A DNA stretch of 46,295 bases from Candidatus Buchananbacteria bacterium CG10_big_fil_rev_8_21_14_0_10_33_19. Lineage in GTDB: Bacteria > Patescibacteriota > Patescibacteriia > 2-01-FULL-39-33. The notes beneath the pieces were generated by a model, which was not told the origin of the DNA, ran no database searches, and saw only the letters and a program-made list of their open reading frames with translations. Numbering within the stretch: position 1 is the first letter of the stretch; each line of letters opens with the position of its first letter. The translations under genes were made by a program, and so were the position numbers. The stretch lies in assembly GCA_002773855.1 (NCBI GenBank), contig PEZY01000005.1, positions 74,237 to 120,531 of the forward strand, given 5' to 3'. Positions 29,247 through 36,133 of the stretch are shown here, in pieces.

Positions 29247-32149
<2,903 letters not shown>

Positions 32150-32151
32150 AA

Positions 32152-32760
32152 TTATCTTTTATAAACTCGACTAGAAATTGTAGTCTGAATAAATATTTCC
32201 TTTTCAAATTTGGGATTAATATTTTGATTTTTTAATTTTAAAAATATTACCACTCGAGGTTGTTTGTTGGTCGCTGGGTTAGTGTTATAAATATCTTCTA
32301 AGTTTGGGATGATATAAAACTTAACATCAGTTACCGCTACGTCATCAGCATTCAAATTGGCCGCTTGGCCATTGACAATATATTCCAAATTATTACCACT
32401 AGCTGATTTAACAATCGAAGTCTCATTACCAAGCTCATCTTTTAGAAAATCAATTCTATCCTGTGGCTGGACCGCCTCCACTGGATATTTTATTTGCCGA
32501 GCTCTTATTTCTCTGGCTATTTTTTCGACAATATAGCGACCGTCATTTTGTAATCGTTGATAGCTAGCAGTGTGCTGATGTAAGCTACTAGCATTAAGAT
32601 AAACCGCAGAGATAATAACTGAGGCAATAGAAAAAATACCAATAGCAATGACTACTTCAGCGAGACTGAAACCAAAACATAAAACATCTAACGTGTAACG
32701 TCTAACATTTTTTCTATTATTTTTTGATAATGCTCCAAAGCATTTTACCAACTTTATCAT
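32152..32760 (-). CDS. PilW-like minor pilin with long repeat-encoded leader
   Basis: G|FSLAEVVIAIGIF, IAREIR, C-terminal QTTISSR; the only in-frame ATG lies inside the upstream four-helix gene. Confidence 0.8.
   Translation of the reverse strand: MIKLVKCFGALSKNNRKNVRRYTLDVLCFGFSLAEVVIAIGIFSIASVIISAVYLNASSLHQHTASYQRLQNDGRYIVEKIAREIRARQIKYPVEAVQPQDRIDFLKDELGNETSIVKSASGNNLEYIVNGQAANLNADDVAVTDVKFYIIPNLEDIYNTNPATNKQPRVVIFLKLKNQNINPKFEKEIFIQTTISSRVYKR
32674..32708. repeat. Heptamer array A (5 units)
   Basis: aaaacat aaaacat ctaacgt gtaacgt ctaacat. Confidence 0.85.
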
Positions 32761-33064
32761 TTAATTTAAGTATTTCTTTATAATCTATTTCTTTTATTAA
32801 ACCTTGTTCATAAGAAAAATATAATAAATATTTTGACTCCTTCAATGAACCATAAGATATTTCTAAAAAATTTATATAGACTTTACAATTTACACCTTTT
32901 CTTCTAGCATAGCCCTCTATATAATTTAAGATAACCGACATAGAAGATCTTCTAATCTGAGAAGTAATGCCATACAATTCATCTTTAGGAAAACTTTTTG
33001 TAATATTATAAATCATTTTTACATACTTGTGCATTGTTATCTTTAAATCATCATGAAAATTCAT
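32717..33064 (-). CDS. Four helix bundle protein (23S rRNA IVS-protein / TIGR02436-like family)
   Basis: IY.ITKSFPKDELYGITSQIRRSS.SV.LNY.EGYAR..FLEISYGSLKE. Confidence 0.92.
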   Translation of the reverse strand: MNFHDDLKITMHKYVKMIYNITKSFPKDELYGITSQIRRSSMSVILNYIEGYARRKGVNCKVYINFLEISYGSLKESKYLLYFSYEQGLIKEIDYKEILKLNDKVGKMLWSIIKK

Positions 33065-33070
33065 ACTACT

Positions 33071-33100
33071 ACGTTTTATGTTATAAGTTAAACGTTACAT
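33071..33100. repeat. Heptamer array B (4 units), inverted relative to A
   Basis: acgtttt atgttat aagttaa acgttac. Confidence 0.85.
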
Positions 33101-33105
33101 ATAAT

Positions 33106-33759
33106 TTATTTCCAATTAAAAATTCTTTCTTGAACTGATATATTTCTATTTTGACCAACTAAAGTCCAAGAAACTGCTGATTTAACATCAATACCAACTT
33201 TCAATTCTGAAGCTAAGCAACTAGAACTCTTAACTGTAAAATCAACATTAAAATCATCACACTGTAAATCATTATTAGCATCACTACAACAAATATTTTG
33301 AGTTTCAATTAAACGATGATAAGTGGTTGGCTGTCCAGAATTATCATGACTATACAAGCCAGTAATCGGATCACTATAAATAGTTGTAGCACCATCGTTT
33401 AAATTATCGGCAGCCAAGTAGTCTAATAACACATTTTCAGAAAATGGATTGACAATTATGCCACTACCGTCGCCATCTAAACCACTATCCCAATAACACG
33501 GATCATAAGTCACGCTATTGTGAAAACAGCTATCGTTATTTTCTATAGCCAACCAATTAGAATCTCTAATATTTTTTACAATTTCTACCCCTTCTCTGGC
33601 CAAATTAATAGATAATATCCTAGCTCCAGCCTCTTGTTCACCATTAAAATTAGAAATAAAAAGACCCCAGACACTAAAAAGACCAACTGTAATAACACCA
33701 ATCGCCACTACTAATTCCAGCAGTCCCTGACCCTTTTGATTTTTAATATCAAAATCCAT
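33106..33759 (-). CDS. PilV-like minor pilin
   Basis: KNQKG|QGLLELVVAIGVI, NLAREGVEIVKNIRDSNW, C-terminal V.W..IFNWK. Confidence 0.8.
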   Translation of the reverse strand: MDFDIKNQKGQGLLELVVAIGVITVGLFSVWGLFISNFNGEQEAGARILSINLAREGVEIVKNIRDSNWLAIENNDSCFHNSVTYDPCYWDSGLDGDGSGIIVNPFSENVLLDYLAADNLNDGATTIYSDPITGLYSHDNSGQPTTYHRLIETQNICCSDANNDLQCDDFNVDFTVKSSSCLASELKVGIDVKSAVSWTLVGQNRNISVQERIFNWK

Positions 33760-33771
33760 TAATTACAAATT

Positions 33772-34344
33772 TTAATTATTTAAAATATCCATTCGACCAG
33801 AAATGCTATTAACTCTAATATTTTTAGAGACGCTCAAATCATCGGCGTGTTTCAAATTAATCAACACTTCATTACTAGCAACCAGTAAATCATCCAGATA
33901 CATTTTAATATCACTCCGTGGTGGTGTTATTTCTATAATCAAATTATTACCTGACATATCAACTATAGTTTTTTCTAATTGCACAGTGGCTATATCAATA
34001 ATAGCATTGACGCTATTTTTGGCTTTTAATGAATATGAACAGTTAACTGAACATTTATCTATCTCAAAAATATATGACACTGGTACTTGTCCGGCTACCA
34101 CTTTACCAGACAAAGATGAAGTTTGCATTTGTTTAATACCATCCAAAATTAGTCTTGATTCATTATCCATATACCGAGCTTTTTCATTGCCTCTAAAATT
34201 TACCACCGTTAAAGTTGAAAATATCCCAACAATAGCAATGACAATTATCATTTCGGCTAAAGTAAAGCCATTTTCAGATAGCGCAAAACGCCTAACGTAT
34301 AACGGTTTATTTCTTTTTAAGAGTAGTCTAACTAATTTTATCAT
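33772..34344 (-). CDS. FimT/FimU-like minor pilin with repeat-encoded leader
   Basis: ENG|FTLAEMIIVIAIVG; C-terminal IRVNSISGRM. Confidence 0.82.
   Translation of the reverse strand: MIKLVRLLLKRNKPLYVRRFALSENGFTLAEMIIVIAIVGIFSTLTVVNFRGNEKARYMDNESRLILDGIKQMQTSSLSGKVVAGQVPVSYIFEIDKCSVNCSYSLKAKNSVNAIIDIATVQLEKTIVDMSGNNLIIEITPPRSDIKMYLDDLLVASNEVLINLKHADDLSVSKNIRVNSISGRMDILNN
34278..34305. repeat. Heptamer array C (4 units, A-like orientation)
   Basis: atagcgc aaaacgc ctaacgt ataacgg. Confidence 0.7.
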
Positions 34345-34369
34345 TAAATTTAAATTAAATTAACAAAAT

Positions 34370-34397
34370 ATGTTATATGTTATGCGTTACGTATTAC
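34370..34397. repeat. Heptamer array D (4 units, B-like orientation)
   Basis: atgttat atgttat gcgttac gtattac. Confidence 0.78.
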
Positions 34398-35176
34398 ATT
34401 AAACTTAAATACCAATTCACAACCACATCTCCCCAAAGTATCGCCACCAATGTCCCGACGGCCAAAAAAGTGCCGAAAGGAATTTGAGATTTAAATTTTT
34501 TTGTTCCCCAAATTAACAAGAATATAGACACCATCGAACCAATAATATAAGAAAAAAACAAAGCCACTACTACAGACTTAGCTCCCAACATCAAGCCCAT
34601 CAAAGCTCCCATCCGTAAATCACCACCACCTATCCATTTACCAGCTGATATTAAAAACTGTACAACAAAAAACCCTAAGCCAATCACCAGTCCAACTAAC
34701 AAACTAATCCAGCTAAAGCCCAAGGTCAAATTAAACAAGAAAGCTATTAGCATGGCCGGTATAGTAATCCTATCTAATATTAAATACCATTTTAAATCAT
34801 AAACAAAAATAATTATCAAAAAACTAACAAAAACCAAATTTCTTAACCATAAAAGCCAGATATCAGAATTATAAAAAAGATTGTCAAAACTCAACATGCC
34901 AATAATATTATAAGTAACTAACACAAATAATAAACCAGTTACTATTTCCATTACTGGATATTGCCATGATATTTTTTTCTGACAATAACGACATTTACCC
35001 AATTGAATAATAAAACTAAGTAATGGTATTAAATCAATTGGCATTAAGATATGATGACAATGCGGACAATTAGAACGAGACCTAACAATATCAGTGCTGC
35101 TATGCATTCTAATAACAACCACATTCAAAAAACTGCCGATTATCAAACCCAAAATAAATATAAAAATATAAAACAC
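34394..35176 (-). CDS. pilD: Prepilin peptidase
   Basis: GSFLNVV..R, RSNCPHC..GKCRYC, YDLKW, GGGDLR, IPFGTFL. Confidence 0.95.
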   Translation of the reverse strand: MFYIFIFILGLIIGSFLNVVVIRMHSSTDIVRSRSNCPHCHHILMPIDLIPLLSFIIQLGKCRYCQKKISWQYPVMEIVTGLLFVLVTYNIIGMLSFDNLFYNSDIWLLWLRNLVFVSFLIIIFVYDLKWYLILDRITIPAMLIAFLFNLTLGFSWISLLVGLVIGLGFFVVQFLISAGKWIGGGDLRMGALMGLMLGAKSVVVALFFSYIIGSMVSIFLLIWGTKKFKSQIPFGTFLAVGTLVAILWGDVVVNWYLSLM

Positions 35177-35680: not shown

Positions 35681-35706
35681 AAAATCCCCCATTGCTGGGG
35701 GATTTT
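35681..35706 (-). terminator. Terminator after the major pilin
   Basis: AAAATCCCCCA-TTGC-TGGGGGATTTT. Confidence 0.85.
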
Positions 35707-35728: not shown

Positions 35729-36133
35729 TTATGGGCAAACAGTCTCAGTACCAGCTAAACTAGCAACTTCCTTAGCCTGACCAGTTGAATCGACGCAGAA
35801 ATCTACAGTTTCATCAGAACACAAACCAGCCCAAGCAACCCAAGCCGAATCATTAATGCCACCAACATTGATCTGATAGGTTGCGGAATCAGGACTACAG
35901 CTTGGAGGCAATAGATTGGAAATTTCAGTGTTAGTCATATCAAAACCAGTAAAAACACCTGAATCATACTGCACGGCAGCAAAAGTTCTGATTTGTGATA
36001 AGTCACTTTTGATTTGGGCATCACGAGCCTTATTTCTAGCGGTGTTTAAAGAAACCACAGCTAGCGAAGAAAGCATACCGATAATAGCAATAACCACCAA
36101 AAGTTCGATTAAAGTAAAACCTTTTTTATTCAT
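35729..36133 (-). CDS. pilA: Type IV major pilin
   Basis: MNKKG|FTLIELLVVIAIIG, ARNKARDA..KSDL, FCVDSTG; own promoter and terminator. Confidence 0.9.
   Translation of the reverse strand: MNKKGFTLIELLVVIAIIGMLSSLAVVSLNTARNKARDAQIKSDLSQIRTFAAVQYDSGVFTGFDMTNTEISNLLPPSCSPDSATYQINVGGINDSAWVAWAGLCSDETVDFCVDSTGQAKEVASLAGTETVCP

What the first reader, a model, noticed from the sequence alone, without database searches (positions are those of the whole stretch)
32674..33100. Four-helix-bundle gene bracketed by inverted heptamer-repeat arrays inside a pilin operon (IVS-like cassette in an mRNA)
Seen: on the mRNA strand the gene is preceded by GTAACGT TTAACTT ATAACAT AAAACGT and followed by ATGTTAG ACGTTAC ACGTTAG ATGTTTT ATGTTTT. 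The two arrays are degenerate 7-mers and are mutually complementary (e.g. AACATAAAACGT with ATGTTTTATGTT; TGTAACGTTTAAC with GTTAGACGTTACA). Known: this protein family was first found in 23S rRNA intervening sequences, which are closed by a stem and excised, and it shares a fold with the nucleic-acid-binding DGR accessory protein Avd; its function is unknown. Inference: gene plus inverted arrays is a self-contained cassette. The arrays could loop the gene out of the transcript, serve as binding sites for an oligomeric repeat-reading protein that controls minor-pilin translation, or be the ends of a mobile unit.
Basis: partly seen in the sequence, partly recalled or inferred. Interest (0 to 1): 0.85.

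Follow-up and report, generated by a model that had tools for sequence, protein, structure and literature searches.

The report
Four-helix-bundle gene cassette with heptamer arms
A small gene of unknown function sits inside a pilus operon, boxed in by two mirror-image runs of 7-base repeats; the same boxed layout surrounds most relatives of this gene in many bacterial phyla, so gene plus repeats looks like one self-contained, probably mobile unit.

Summary
On the minus (mRNA) strand, four RTAACRY heptamers (33071-33098) precede a 115-aa PF05635 gene (32717-33064). Five complementary RYGTTAY heptamers (32674-32708) follow it.

The layout is family-wide, not local. In 121 of 163 PF05635 copies examined, the two flanks are inverted complements. 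The copies come from 33 related CPR genomes and from 80 named GTDB loci that include Omnitrophota, Planctomycetes, Elusimicrobia and Bacteroidota. The arms abut start and stop codons. They consist of about 4 tandem units of 7 (less often 8-9) nt, and the unit differs between cassettes but tracks the protein subfamily.

At the same pilin-operon junctions, related genomes show a full cassette, a different cassette, a deletion relic or an empty site. One genome holds two near-identical copies whose identity starts exactly at the outer edge of the 5' array. Gene-less array pairs also exist, one of them 1.3 kb upstream in this window.

Here the cassette's 3' end supplies the start codon of the next pilin, and its 3' arm is translated as prepilin leader.

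Best reading: an IVS-type selfish cassette whose arrays are its cis-acting ends. How the arms work (DNA ends, RNA stem or protein sites) is inferred only. Nothing ties it to pilin regulation.

The parts
33071..33098 (-). 5' arm: four degenerate heptamers, consensus RTAACRY
   Evidence: Read directly. It is one arm of inverted repeat I1. It is homologous over 48 nt to the 5' arm of a gene-less element upstream of mraZ.
32717..33064 (-). PF05635 (23S_rRNA_IVP) four-helix-bundle gene, 115 aa, net charge +8
   Evidence: Pfam E 6.5e-26. PDB 2GSC matches at E 1.1e-10. Charge count.
32674..32708 (-). 3' arm: five heptamers, consensus RYGTTAY. It is translated as part of the prepilin leader of the next gene.
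   Evidence: The frame was read.
32152..32760 (-). Pilin-like gene ('pilinC', my label). Its start codon lies 44 nt inside the 3' end of the four-helix-bundle gene. The 31-aa leader ends in G|FSLAE.
   Evidence: ORF. N_methyl motif at E 0.0031, which is below the Pfam cut-off. Homologous long leaders occur in G001 and G005.
33106..33759 (-). Upstream pilin-like gene ('pilinB')
   Evidence: N_methyl motif at E 0.0011, below the cut-off.
34370..34390 (-). 5' arm of a gene-less pair of the same unit type (GTAACGC ATAACAT ATAACAT), starting 3 nt after the pilD stop
34285..34305 (-). 3' arm of the gene-less pair (CCGTTAT ACGTTAG GCGTTTT), lying inside the leader of 'pilinA'. The 64-nt loop holds the pilinA start codon and resembles the 3' end of the four-helix-bundle gene.
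33772..34344 (-). Pilin-like gene ('pilinA') with a 26-aa leader that starts MIKLV, like pilinC
   Evidence: N_methyl motif at E 2.5e-5, above the cut-off.
34394..35176 (-). Prepilin peptidase (PilD-like), which would remove the leaders
   Evidence: Pfam A24_N_bact E 2.2e-31 and Peptidase_A24 E 1.2e-11.

Best explanation
What it is (well supported): one copy of a widespread cassette. A promoterless PF05635 four-helix-bundle ORF is enclosed, from just before its start codon to just after its stop codon, by two inverted arrays of about four degenerate 7-nt units (8-9 nt in some lineages). Gene and arrays are inherited, duplicated, lost and inserted together. The cassette sits in transcribed spacers of host operons: here a type IV pilin operon, elsewhere tRNA operons, other mRNA operons and, according to the literature, rRNA genes.

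How it most likely works (inferred):
- The arrays are the cassette's cis-acting ends. Seen as double-stranded DNA they present the same short core in mirror orientation at both ends, like the multiple subterminal protein-binding repeats of transposon ends.
- They are probably read by the cassette's own basic protein, whose homologues form oligomers.
- Because the ends are complementary, any read-through transcript also carries a closing stem around the ORF. That stem is the structure RNase III cuts in rRNA intervening sequences. This 'RNA shadow' of the ends would make insertions into operons tolerable.

Local consequence (shown by sequence): the insertion replaced the original start of the downstream pilin. 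That pilin now starts at an ATG inside the cassette gene's 3' end and translates the 3' arm as extra leader peptide. The prepilin peptidase encoded 1.3 kb upstream would cut this leader off.
For: Family-wide bracket:
- 75 of 85 cassettes from 33 relatives have an inverted flank match with SW score at least 24. Arms end a median 10 nt before the ATG and begin a median 3 nt after the stop. Median arm length is 31 nt. The period is 7 in 46 of 75 5' arms and 50 of 75 3' arms.
- 55 of 77 analysed GTDB loci score at least 24, including non-CPR phyla.
- Own arms score a median of 29.5-32, against 14-15 for mismatched cassette pairs and 14-15 for the direct orientation.
- Neighbouring genes score a median of 14 against 32 for the cassettes, p 7e-10.
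- Flank periodicity is 0.57 against 0.37-0.39 for control gene flanks, p 1e-13 and 2e-11.
- Both arms share the same period in 59 of 71 cassettes. The modal number of units per arm is 4.

The unit type follows the protein subfamily:
- Mantel r 0.23, with 0 of 999 permutations reaching it. Arm 5-mer overlap rises from 0.05 to 0.24 as protein similarity rises.

Mobility or turnover:
- At the pilinB|pilinC junction, G000 has this cassette and G002 has a cassette of another subfamily. G001 has a relic: the 3' end of the gene and the 3' arm are kept, the 5' arm and the rest of the gene are gone. G003 has overlapping genes with no cassette.
- In G005 the same subfamily sits at pilD|pilinA instead.
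- G002 has a third cassette between the 301-aa gene and ligA, where G000 and G001 have 2-3 nt.
- Two copies in G038 are identical at 391 of 397 nt. The identity runs from the outer edge of the 5' array (-42) to +17 inside the 3' array, and the surroundings are unrelated.
- Gene-less pairs of the same unit type exist in this genome and in G037.

DNA-like symmetry of the arms:
- Mismatches that would be G.U wobbles on the sense RNA number 97. Their antisense counterparts number 122.
- The duplex is more stable in sense orientation in 27 cassettes and in antisense orientation in 45.

RNA shadow:
- Both the minimum-energy and the centroid folds pair the two arms.
- RNase III is encoded in the genome.

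Protein:
- Net charge +8, with a median of +5 over the 86 cassettes.
- The PDB homologue 2GSC has five chains in its entry.
- Avd is described as a pentameric basic barrel similar to these proteins (passage of 10.1101/2023.10.23.563531).

Local exaptation:
- The only in-frame starts of pilinC lie inside the cassette gene.
- G001 keeps exactly that piece after losing the gene.
Against: - No enzyme that could move the cassette was identified, and the ORF has no known catalytic motif.
- No target-site duplication could be defined. The filled and empty sites compared belong to species about 70% identical in protein, which is too distant.
- Only one recent duplicate pair was found among 163 cassettes.
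- Contigs of four metagenome runs showed no empty-site or inversion joint.
- Protein binding to the repeats is entirely untested.
- A 7-bp spacing on double-stranded DNA is tight for a barrel-shaped oligomer.
- The number of units per arm (mode 4, range 2-6 and more) does not obviously match a pentamer.
- The link between unit type and protein subfamily is also what plain common descent of the cassette would give.
- The absence of a wobble bias could merely mean the arms are young rather than DNA-read.
- 42 of 163 cassettes show no clear inverted match at my threshold.
Confidence: 0.45

Rival explanations
1. Purely RNA-level IVS. The arms matter only in the transcript. They form a stem closing the ORF, RNase III cuts it, and the gene's RNA is released (or the operon RNA is split) exactly as in 23S rRNA intervening sequences. 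The DNA has no 'ends' function.
For: - It has the same protein family and the same ORF-in-stem layout as the experimentally processed rRNA IVS.
- Predicted folds pair the arms.
- RNase III is present.
- Cassettes sit between tRNA genes and next to a group I intron, that is, in stable-RNA precursors.
- PF05635 ORFs are reported inside CPR 16S and 23S insertions (passages of 10.1101/2024.02.27.582315).
Against: - A stem does not need tandem periodicity, yet period 7-8 is conserved across phyla.
- There is no excess of G.U over A.C mismatches (97 against 122).
- Sense folding is no better than antisense folding (27 against 45).
- Fold z-scores are only -0.45 and -0.77.
- Cutting this stem would remove the start codon of pilinC.
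- It does not explain duplication with borders at the array edge.
Confidence: 0.25
2. Autoregulatory or operator arrays without mobility. The protein binds the repeats around its own gene, on DNA or RNA, to set its own expression or that of the neighbours. Cassettes spread only by ordinary recombination.
For: - The arms overlap the ribosome-binding region and the stop codon.
- The protein is basic.
- The unit type tracks the subfamily.
- Heptad and 8-bp arrays read by small repressors are known (omega repressor, MetJ; recalled, from no call).
Against: - It does not explain why different subfamilies occupy the same junctions in sister species, or why a copy appears at a new place with borders at the array.
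- It gives no reason for a mirror-image second array after the stop codon.
Confidence: 0.12
3. Generic intergenic palindromes (REP-like elements, terminators or processing sites) that belong to the host. The four-helix-bundle gene merely landed in one of them.
For: - Gene-less pairs of the same unit type lie after gene stops elsewhere in the genome.
- G003 and G010 have gene-less pairs at pilD|pilinA.
- G037 has two such pairs in a lexA-dinB operon.
Against: - The bracket travels with the gene across phyla, and its unit type follows the protein subfamily.
- The loop of the gene-less pair in this window aligns to the 3' end of the gene, and G001 is a demonstrable deletion relic. Gene-less pairs therefore look like decayed cassettes.
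- Such pairs are few. A strict scan found 10 hits in the genome, of which 5 were runs of masked N.
Confidence: 0.08
4. Retro-mobile cassette. The Avd-like protein recruits a DGR-type reverse transcriptase to the transcript with its paired ends.
For: - Avd works with a reverse transcriptase on an RNA whose distal flanks pair.
- This genome has one DGR-type reverse transcriptase.
Against: - That reverse transcriptase is on another contig and has its own adjacent Avd-like ORF.
- 14 of the 33 genomes with PF05635 have no reverse-transcriptase match at all. These include G038 (13 PF05635 matches, 100% complete) and G035.
- The window gene scores below the bAvd cut-off (31.9 against 40).
Confidence: 0.03
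5. Pilin-specific switch. The arrays regulate minor-pilin translation, or form an invertible or slippage-prone phase-variation element.
For: - Two adjacent pilin genes carry the arrays in their leaders.
- A 7-nt unit would shift the reading frame if it were gained or lost.
Against: - The same architecture occurs in many unrelated contexts.
- The units are degenerate, which makes them poor substrates for slippage.
- No inversion or length variant was seen in four runs.
- G001, G003 and G010 do without it at pilinC.
Confidence: 0.04

Closest known systems
ORF-bearing intervening sequences of 23S rRNA (Coxiella, Leptospira; 'S23p')
   Same: Same protein family. The ORF lies in the loop of a stem formed by the element's terminal inverted repeats. 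The size is similar (about 430-450 nt). It is regarded as a selfish element of unknown mobility. RNase III is the expected processing enzyme.
   Different: - It lies in an mRNA operon, not in an rRNA helix.
- The arms are degenerate tandem arrays (74% complementary here), not a near-perfect 28-bp stem.
- The 3' arm is translated.
- Excision is untested and would damage the downstream gene.
- Whether rRNA-borne copies also have periodic arms I could not check.
Avd, the accessory protein of diversity-generating retroelements
   Same: Homologous four-helix bundle (weak bAvd match). Avd is a basic, pentameric barrel. It acts on an RNA whose distal flanks pair around a looped-out segment.
   Different: There is no adjacent reverse transcriptase, template repeat or variable repeat. 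Cassettes abound in genomes with no reverse-transcriptase match. The genome's real DGR has its own Avd-like gene.
REP/REPIN elements with their RAYT gene (recalled, from no call)
   Same: A gene is flanked by inverted copies of a short repeat, and gene-less inverted pairs of the same repeat are scattered in intergenic DNA.
   Different: The protein is not a Y1/HUH transposase. The gene-less copies are few (single digits per genome). Each arm is a tandem array rather than one palindrome.
Transposon ends with multiple subterminal protein-binding repeats (Ac/Ds, En/Spm, Mu, Tn7; recalled) and MITE-like derivatives
   Same: Several short repeats lie at each end in mirror orientation. Shorter derivatives lack the gene.
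   Different: No transposase is present and no target-site duplication could be defined. The whole unit is only about 430 nt.
Arrays of 7-bp heptads (omega repressor of pSM19035) or 8-bp metboxes (MetJ); ring-shaped RNA binders reading spaced triplets (TRAP, HutP). All recalled, from no call.
   Same: They show the same 7-8 nt periodicity of a short core plus variable bases, read cooperatively by small oligomeric proteins.
   Different: The protein folds differ. Binding by PF05635 proteins has never been shown, to my knowledge.

Membership tests
PF05635 / 23S_rRNA_IVP four-helix-bundle proteins | Match to the Pfam model above its gathering score | tested here: met
   91.1 bits against a cut-off of 33.8, E 6.5e-26, residues 11-110 on model positions 9-105 of 106.
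PF05635 / 23S_rRNA_IVP four-helix-bundle proteins | Conserved polar residues of the family (Q..R...S...N..E and a later E) | tested here: met
   Q36, S43, N47 and E76 are invariant, and R39 and E50 are at least 90% conserved, in 30 diverse cassette proteins that include the window's.
PF05635 / 23S_rRNA_IVP four-helix-bundle proteins | Solved homologue with the four-helix-bundle oligomer | tested here: inconclusive
   2GSC matches at E 1.1e-10 and has 5 chains in one entry. No structure was predicted here. The four-copy complex prediction gave no verdict.
rRNA intervening sequence (IVS) | Inserted in a helix of 23S (or 16S) rRNA | tested here: not met
   It is flanked by pilin-like ORFs. There is no Rfam match in 31900-34700.
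rRNA intervening sequence (IVS) | Terminal inverted repeats able to close a stem around the ORF | tested here: met
   The arms are 34 nt and 74% complementary. They pair in the minimum-energy and centroid folds.
rRNA intervening sequence (IVS) | Excision from the transcript by RNase III | not testable with these tools
   An RNase III gene is present. No RNA run was listed.
DGR accessory protein (Avd) | Encoded next to a DGR reverse transcriptase with template and variable repeats | tested here: not met
   The only RVT_1 match is on contig C10 and has its own Avd-like ORF. The bAvd model scores 31.9, below its cut-off of 40.
Insertion sequence / transposon | Encodes a recognisable transposase or recombinase | tested here: not met
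   The 369 nt between the arms hold only the PF05635 ORF.
Insertion sequence / transposon | Presence/absence at orthologous sites, and copies in new contexts bounded by the terminal repeats | tested here: met
   Junction comparison of G000-G003, G005 and G010. The G038 duplicate is bounded at the edge of the 5' array.
Insertion sequence / transposon | Target-site duplication | tested here: inconclusive
   Nothing convincing was seen at the junctions compared. The genomes are too divergent and too AT-rich.
REP/RAYT (REPtron) | Y1/HUH transposase gene flanked by REPs | tested here: not met
   The flanked gene is PF05635. I did not search the genome for RAYT genes.
Type IV pilin / pseudopilin genes (the host operon) | N-terminal methylation motif after a G|F cleavage site, with a prepilin peptidase nearby | tested here: met
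   N_methyl hits on four ORFs: two above the cut-off, and 32152-32760 and 33106-33759 below it. PilD-like peptidase at E 2.2e-31.

The most novel reading that the evidence does not exclude
PF05635 proteins and their flanking inverted heptad arrays form a previously unrecognised class of minimal selfish element, spread through most bacterial phyla.

- A ring-forming four-helix-bundle protein reads about 4-5 repeats of a 4-6-nt core at 7-8-nt spacing on each side of its own gene. This brings the two ends together.
- By doing so it drives or protects the cassette's propagation.
- The classical rRNA 'intervening sequences' would be just the subset that landed in rRNA, and DGR Avd a domesticated offshoot.
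- Each protein subfamily would carry its own repeat 'code'.
Probability: 0.3. Interest if true: 0.9.

Novelty: new variant of a known kind. Interest (0 to 1): 0.78.

Why it matters
PF05635 is one of the commonest small proteins of unknown function in bacteria.

Its only described contexts so far are rRNA intervening sequences and DGRs. The origin and mobility of the rRNA elements have been an open question since the early 1990s.

This work shows that the gene almost always comes with mirror-image arrays of 7-8-nt repeats tight against its ends, and that the repeat type follows the protein subfamily. That gives the family a concrete, testable nucleic-acid partner: does the protein bind its own repeats, and in which form?

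It also gives a defined unit for studying mobility, and a unifying view of rRNA, tRNA-operon and mRNA-operon copies.

The local case further shows how such an insertion can be absorbed by a host gene. A prepilin leader that is cleaved off anyway now starts inside the cassette.

Tried and rejected
- **TRF.** Running TRF on the whole genome at a low score gave 2227 mostly trivial repeats and was of no use.
- **Generic genome scan for inverted periodic arrays.** Using 8-mer seeds and SW at least 30, the scan was too strict. It missed the known RTAACRY pairs and returned 10 hits, 5 of them runs of masked N. It did show two further gene-less pairs of other unit types, at C10:10941-11011 and C10:311091-311209.
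- **RNAduplex on 120-nt flanks.** It over-extends the duplexes. Own flanks gave -46.6 and mismatched flanks -33.4 kcal/mol, n = 31. I replaced it with local alignment.
- **Whole-element fold energies.** They are not better than shuffles (z -0.45 and -0.77).
- **Rfam.** No match in 31900-34700.
- **Promoter and terminator scan.** Nothing above chance at the cassette.
- **Target-site duplication.** A 9-nt direct repeat at the G002 cassette next to ligA was considered and dropped, because it does not fit the empty sites of G000 and G001.
- **Orientation bias.**
  - The downstream neighbour is co-oriented in 114 of 126 called cases.
  - The upstream neighbour is co-oriented in 101 of 129.
  - The genome baseline is 653 of 805 adjacent ORF pairs.
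  - This is at most a mild downstream bias.
- **Sequencing runs.** No RNA holder was listed among 24 rows.
- **Contigs of runs X12-X15 laid on 31900-34600.**
  - No joint, inversion or empty site appeared.
  - Contigs tend to break at the arrays.
  - One X14 record joins 34498 to 33774 with 17 other letters between. At 88% likeness it may come from another organism.
- **Complex prediction.** Four copies gave no verdict (median score 0.28, mark 0.42).
- **Units per arm.** Counted to test a pentamer match. The mode is 4, which is not decisive.
- **Literature.**
  - Five full-text searches found nothing that describes tandem-repeat arms around PF05635 genes or such cassettes outside rRNA and DGRs.
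  - The library lacks most subscription journals, and the early IVS papers were not read.
  - Papers seen as passages only: PMC4990558, 10.1101/2024.02.27.582315, PMC10053308 and 10.1101/2023.10.23.563531.
  - I did not ask for supplements. Table S4 of the CPR rRNA-insertion preprint may list the PF05635 ORFs and could bear on whether rRNA-borne copies have periodic arms.
Full report
**1. The observation**

All genes in this stretch run on the minus strand. Read on that strand, the order is as follows:
- The stop of a pilin-like ORF (33106-33759).
- Seven bases later, four heptamers: GTAACGT TTAACTT ATAACAT AAAACGT (33071-33098).
- Six bases later, the ATG of a 115-aa ORF (32717-33064).
- Eight bases after its stop, five heptamers: ATGTTAG ACGTTAC ACGTTAG ATGTTTT ATGTTTT (32674-32708).

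The ORF is a clear PF05635 (23S_rRNA_IVP) protein, with E 6.5e-26. It has a weak, sub-threshold match to bAvd and a solved relative, 2GSC (E 1.1e-10).

The two arrays are the longest inverted repeat of the region: 34 nt, 74% complementary, 369 nt apart.

Triplets of units that fit RYGTTAY in at least 19 of 21 positions occur 11 times in the 945-kb genome. Shuffled genomes give 0.3.

Two details were missed:
- The downstream array lies inside the reading frame of the next pilin-like gene (32152-32760). That frame has no start codon other than ATG 32760 or TTG 32751, and both lie inside the last 44 nt of the four-helix-bundle gene.
- The same kind of inverted array pair, without any gene, sits 1.3 kb upstream between pilD and the first pilin-like gene. 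Its arms are 34370-34390 and 34285-34305, and the start codon of that pilin lies in the 64-nt loop.

**2. The arrays in the rest of the genome**

The window is C2:74237-120531 of a 945-kb, 12-contig CPR-type genome. The nearest named relatives of the protein are Candidatus Falkowbacteria and Parcubacteria MAGs.

Further pairs of the RTAACRY type, always in the order TAAC arm then GTTA arm, lie directly after a gene stop at two other places:
- Upstream of mraZ (C2:10777-10906).
- Next to a tyrosine-recombinase gene (C10:320511-320645).

The 5' arm of the mraZ element aligns to the cassette's 5' arm over 48 nt, including bases outside the heptamers. These are therefore homologous elements, not convergent motifs.

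The genome's second PF05635 gene (C10:326725-327069, after pheT) is also bracketed by inverted tandem repeats. Its unit is different: GTCTATAAAGT upstream and ACTTTATAA downstream.

**3. The bracket is a property of the protein family**

PF05635 matches occur in 33 of 41 related genomes, with up to 13 matches per genome. I collected 91 copies, dropped 5 without an open frame, and analysed 85-86.

Inverted complementarity of the flanks:
- 75 of the 85 copies have an inverted flank match with SW score at least 24.
- The arms end a median 10 nt before the start codon and begin a median 3 nt after the stop.
- Median arm length is 31 nt.
- The best internal period is 7 nt in 46 of 75 5' arms and 50 of 75 3' arms, and 8 or 9 in most others.

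Controls:
- Neighbouring genes in the same loci score a median of 14 against 32 for the cassettes (p 7e-10). Several of the top controls are genes that touch a cassette or a gene-less pair.
- Flank periodicity is 0.57 against 0.37-0.39 (p 1e-13 and 2e-11).
- A cassette's own two flanks score 32. The 5' flank of one cassette against the 3' flank of another scores 15, and the same flanks compared in direct orientation also score 15.

These tests overstate independence, because relatives share ancestry. The effect is nevertheless plain to the eye in the listings.

In the best 80 loci, 55 of the 77 analysable copies show the bracket. Examples outside the CPR:
- Omnitrophota: GTCACAW units.
- Planctomycetes: GGGCAGT units.
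- Elusimicrobia, Desulfobacterales, Hyphomicrobiales (GAGTAGT units), and Chitinophagaceae/Flavobacteriales records.

Over both sets:
- 121 of 163 cassettes pass the threshold.
- Where both arms are clearly periodic (71 cassettes), they share the period in 59. The combination 7/7 occurs in 38 and 8/8 in 18.
- The modal number of units per arm is 4.

**4. Unit type follows protein subfamily**

Examples of subfamilies and their units:
- MKI.RFEDI proteins: ATAAAGTY units of 8-9 nt.
- FRFE.L.IW proteins: TATGGC/TAGC heptamers.
- YDLE.RT.KF proteins: AATTTTN.
- The window's subfamily: units with an AAC, AGC or ACA core.

Protein similarity and arm 5-mer overlap are correlated (r 0.23). None of 999 permutations reached that value.

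This is what a cassette inherited as a unit would show. It is also what a protein that reads its own repeats would show. The data cannot separate the two.

**5. Turnover at the very junctions of this operon**

The operon pilD-pilinA-pilinB-pilinC-(about 300 aa)-ligA is conserved in three congeners (G001-G003) and two other genera, G005 and G010.

At pilinB|pilinC:
- G000 has the cassette.
- G002 has a PF05635 gene of another subfamily with AATTTTT-type arms.
- G003 has overlapping genes and no cassette.
- G010 has an unrelated GC-rich spacer.
- G001 has a 20-nt spacer. Its pilinC leader still contains, in another frame, the last 14 codons and the stop of the lost four-helix-bundle gene, plus the 3' arm. 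The 5' arm and the rest of the gene are gone.
- A 13-nt near-identity between the end of pilinB and an internal site of the gene could have mediated that deletion. This is my inference.

At pilD|pilinA:
- G005 carries the window's own subfamily of cassette. The pilinA leader there starts inside the gene, just as pilinC does in G000.
- G000 and G002 have gene-less RTAACRY pairs.
- G003 and G010 have gene-less AATTTTN pairs.
- G001 has 4 nt.

Before ligA, G002 has a third cassette where G000 and G001 have 2-3 nt.

In G038, two copies 39 kb apart encode identical proteins and are identical at 391 of 397 nt. The identity begins exactly at the outer edge of the 5' array and ends 17 nt into the 3' array. 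Beyond these points the DNA is unrelated. This is the one direct sign of a recent copy-and-insert event, and it places the border at the array.

**6. Contexts**

- Among 135 cassettes with enough flank, both neighbours are co-oriented in 87. With a genome baseline of 81% for adjacent ORFs, that is about what is expected.
- The downstream gene is co-oriented somewhat more often than baseline (114 of 126).
- Six cassettes lie between or beside tRNA genes, and one lies next to a group I intron.
- One CPR study reports PF05635 ORFs inside 16S and 23S insertions.
- Around the window's cassette there is no promoter or terminator signal above chance. It is most likely transcribed with the operon.

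**7. RNA or DNA?**

Points in favour of an RNA stem:
- Predicted folds of the 446-nt element and of the gene-less pair close the arms in both the minimum-energy and the centroid structures. The energies, however, are not better than shuffles.
- RNase III is encoded.
- In the Coxiella 23S IVS, RNase III cuts the stem formed by the terminal inverted repeats, with the homologous ORF in the loop.

Points against a purely RNA-level role:
- A stem needs no tandem periodicity.
- Mismatches between the arms show no wobble signature. There are 97 G.T against 122 A.C, with A.A and T.T the commonest classes.
- The duplex is more stable in sense orientation in 27 cassettes and in antisense orientation in 45.
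- In this window, cleavage would cut the start codon off pilinC.

A retroelement mechanism is unlikely:
- 14 of the 33 PF05635-positive genomes have no reverse-transcriptase match.
- This genome's single DGR-type enzyme has its own Avd-like neighbour on another contig.

**8. Reading**

I conclude with high confidence that gene plus arrays is one unit of a widespread IVS-type cassette. The gene-less pairs are mostly its decayed derivatives.

My preferred mechanism is inference only. The arrays are the unit's ends, probably read by its own basic protein, whose homologues are oligomeric. The closing stem in transcripts is the by-product that lets operons, tRNA precursors and rRNA tolerate the insertion. 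I give this composite 0.45, and the RNA-only version 0.25.

Nothing links the cassette functionally to pili. The pilin operon seems to tolerate it because prepilin leaders are cleaved off. That tolerance let the cassette's 3' end become the start and leader of pilinC.

**9. Novelty**

ORF-bearing rRNA intervening sequences closed by inverted repeats are known. The suggestion that they are relics of mobile elements is old; it is cited in PMC4990558.

I could not find the following in five literature searches:
- The same layout being the rule for this family outside rRNA, across phyla.
- The arms being tandem arrays with a conserved 7-8-nt period and subfamily-specific cores.
- Filled, relic and empty sites existing among sister species.

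I therefore rate it a new variant of a known kind. There is a real chance (about 0.3) that it is a distinct class of minimal element with a protein-repeat recognition code.

Noticed in passing
G000:C10:229740-233348 (locus L105; outside the window): A DGR-like module. It has a 334-aa reverse transcriptase (RVT_1, E 2.3e-25), a divergently oriented 113-aa Avd-like four-helix ORF right next to it, and a 126-aa ORF upstream that could be the target gene.
   Followed up: partly
G000:C2:10777-10906 and G000:C10:320511-320645 (outside the window): Gene-less inverted RTAACRY array pairs. One lies between a tsaB-like gene and mraZ, and its loop holds a terminator-like hairpin. The other lies about 100 nt upstream of a tyrosine-recombinase (XerC/D-like) gene.
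   Followed up: partly
L009 (G037:C1:889756-893067), about 1440-2920 on the + strand: Three elements with the same GAGATTA/GAAATTA unit type lie in one lexA / small ORF / dinB-like operon. One carries a PF05635 gene, and two are gene-less hairpins in the next two intergenic spacers.
   Followed up: partly
L064, L065, L069, L070, L073, L074: PF05635 cassettes sit between or beside tRNA genes. The MDTFRFFQFQVY subfamily lies next to tRNA genes in G001, G002, G003 and G012. L051 has a cassette directly upstream of a group I intron match.
   Followed up: partly
window 35681-35706 (minus strand): A strong terminator-like hairpin with a T tail lies just after the major pilin gene (35729-36133). This is the usual arrangement that lets the major pilin be made in excess over the downstream minor pilins.
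   Followed up: no
L042 (G003), pilinB|pilinC junction: The leader region of G003 pilinC is a 16-nt tandem duplication rich in AAAAC. This resembles the AAAAC-type 5' arms of a cassette elsewhere in G003 (L067). It could be a solo arm or mere lysine-codon bias.
   Followed up: no
window 33774-34498, run X14: One metagenome contig joins 34498 to 33774 with 17 other letters between. That skips pilinA and the gene-less pair. At 88% likeness it may belong to a related organism.
   Followed up: no
G000:C10:10941-11011 and C10:311091-311209 (outside the window): Two more gene-less inverted array pairs of other unit types. One is the AAAGT type, like the genome's second cassette. The other is the AATTTTN type, for which this genome has no gene-bearing copy.
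   Followed up: no
G000 contigs C3, C9, C10:159624, C12: Runs of N (masked or withheld stretches) are present in the laid genome. They produced false palindromes in my scan.
   Followed up: no
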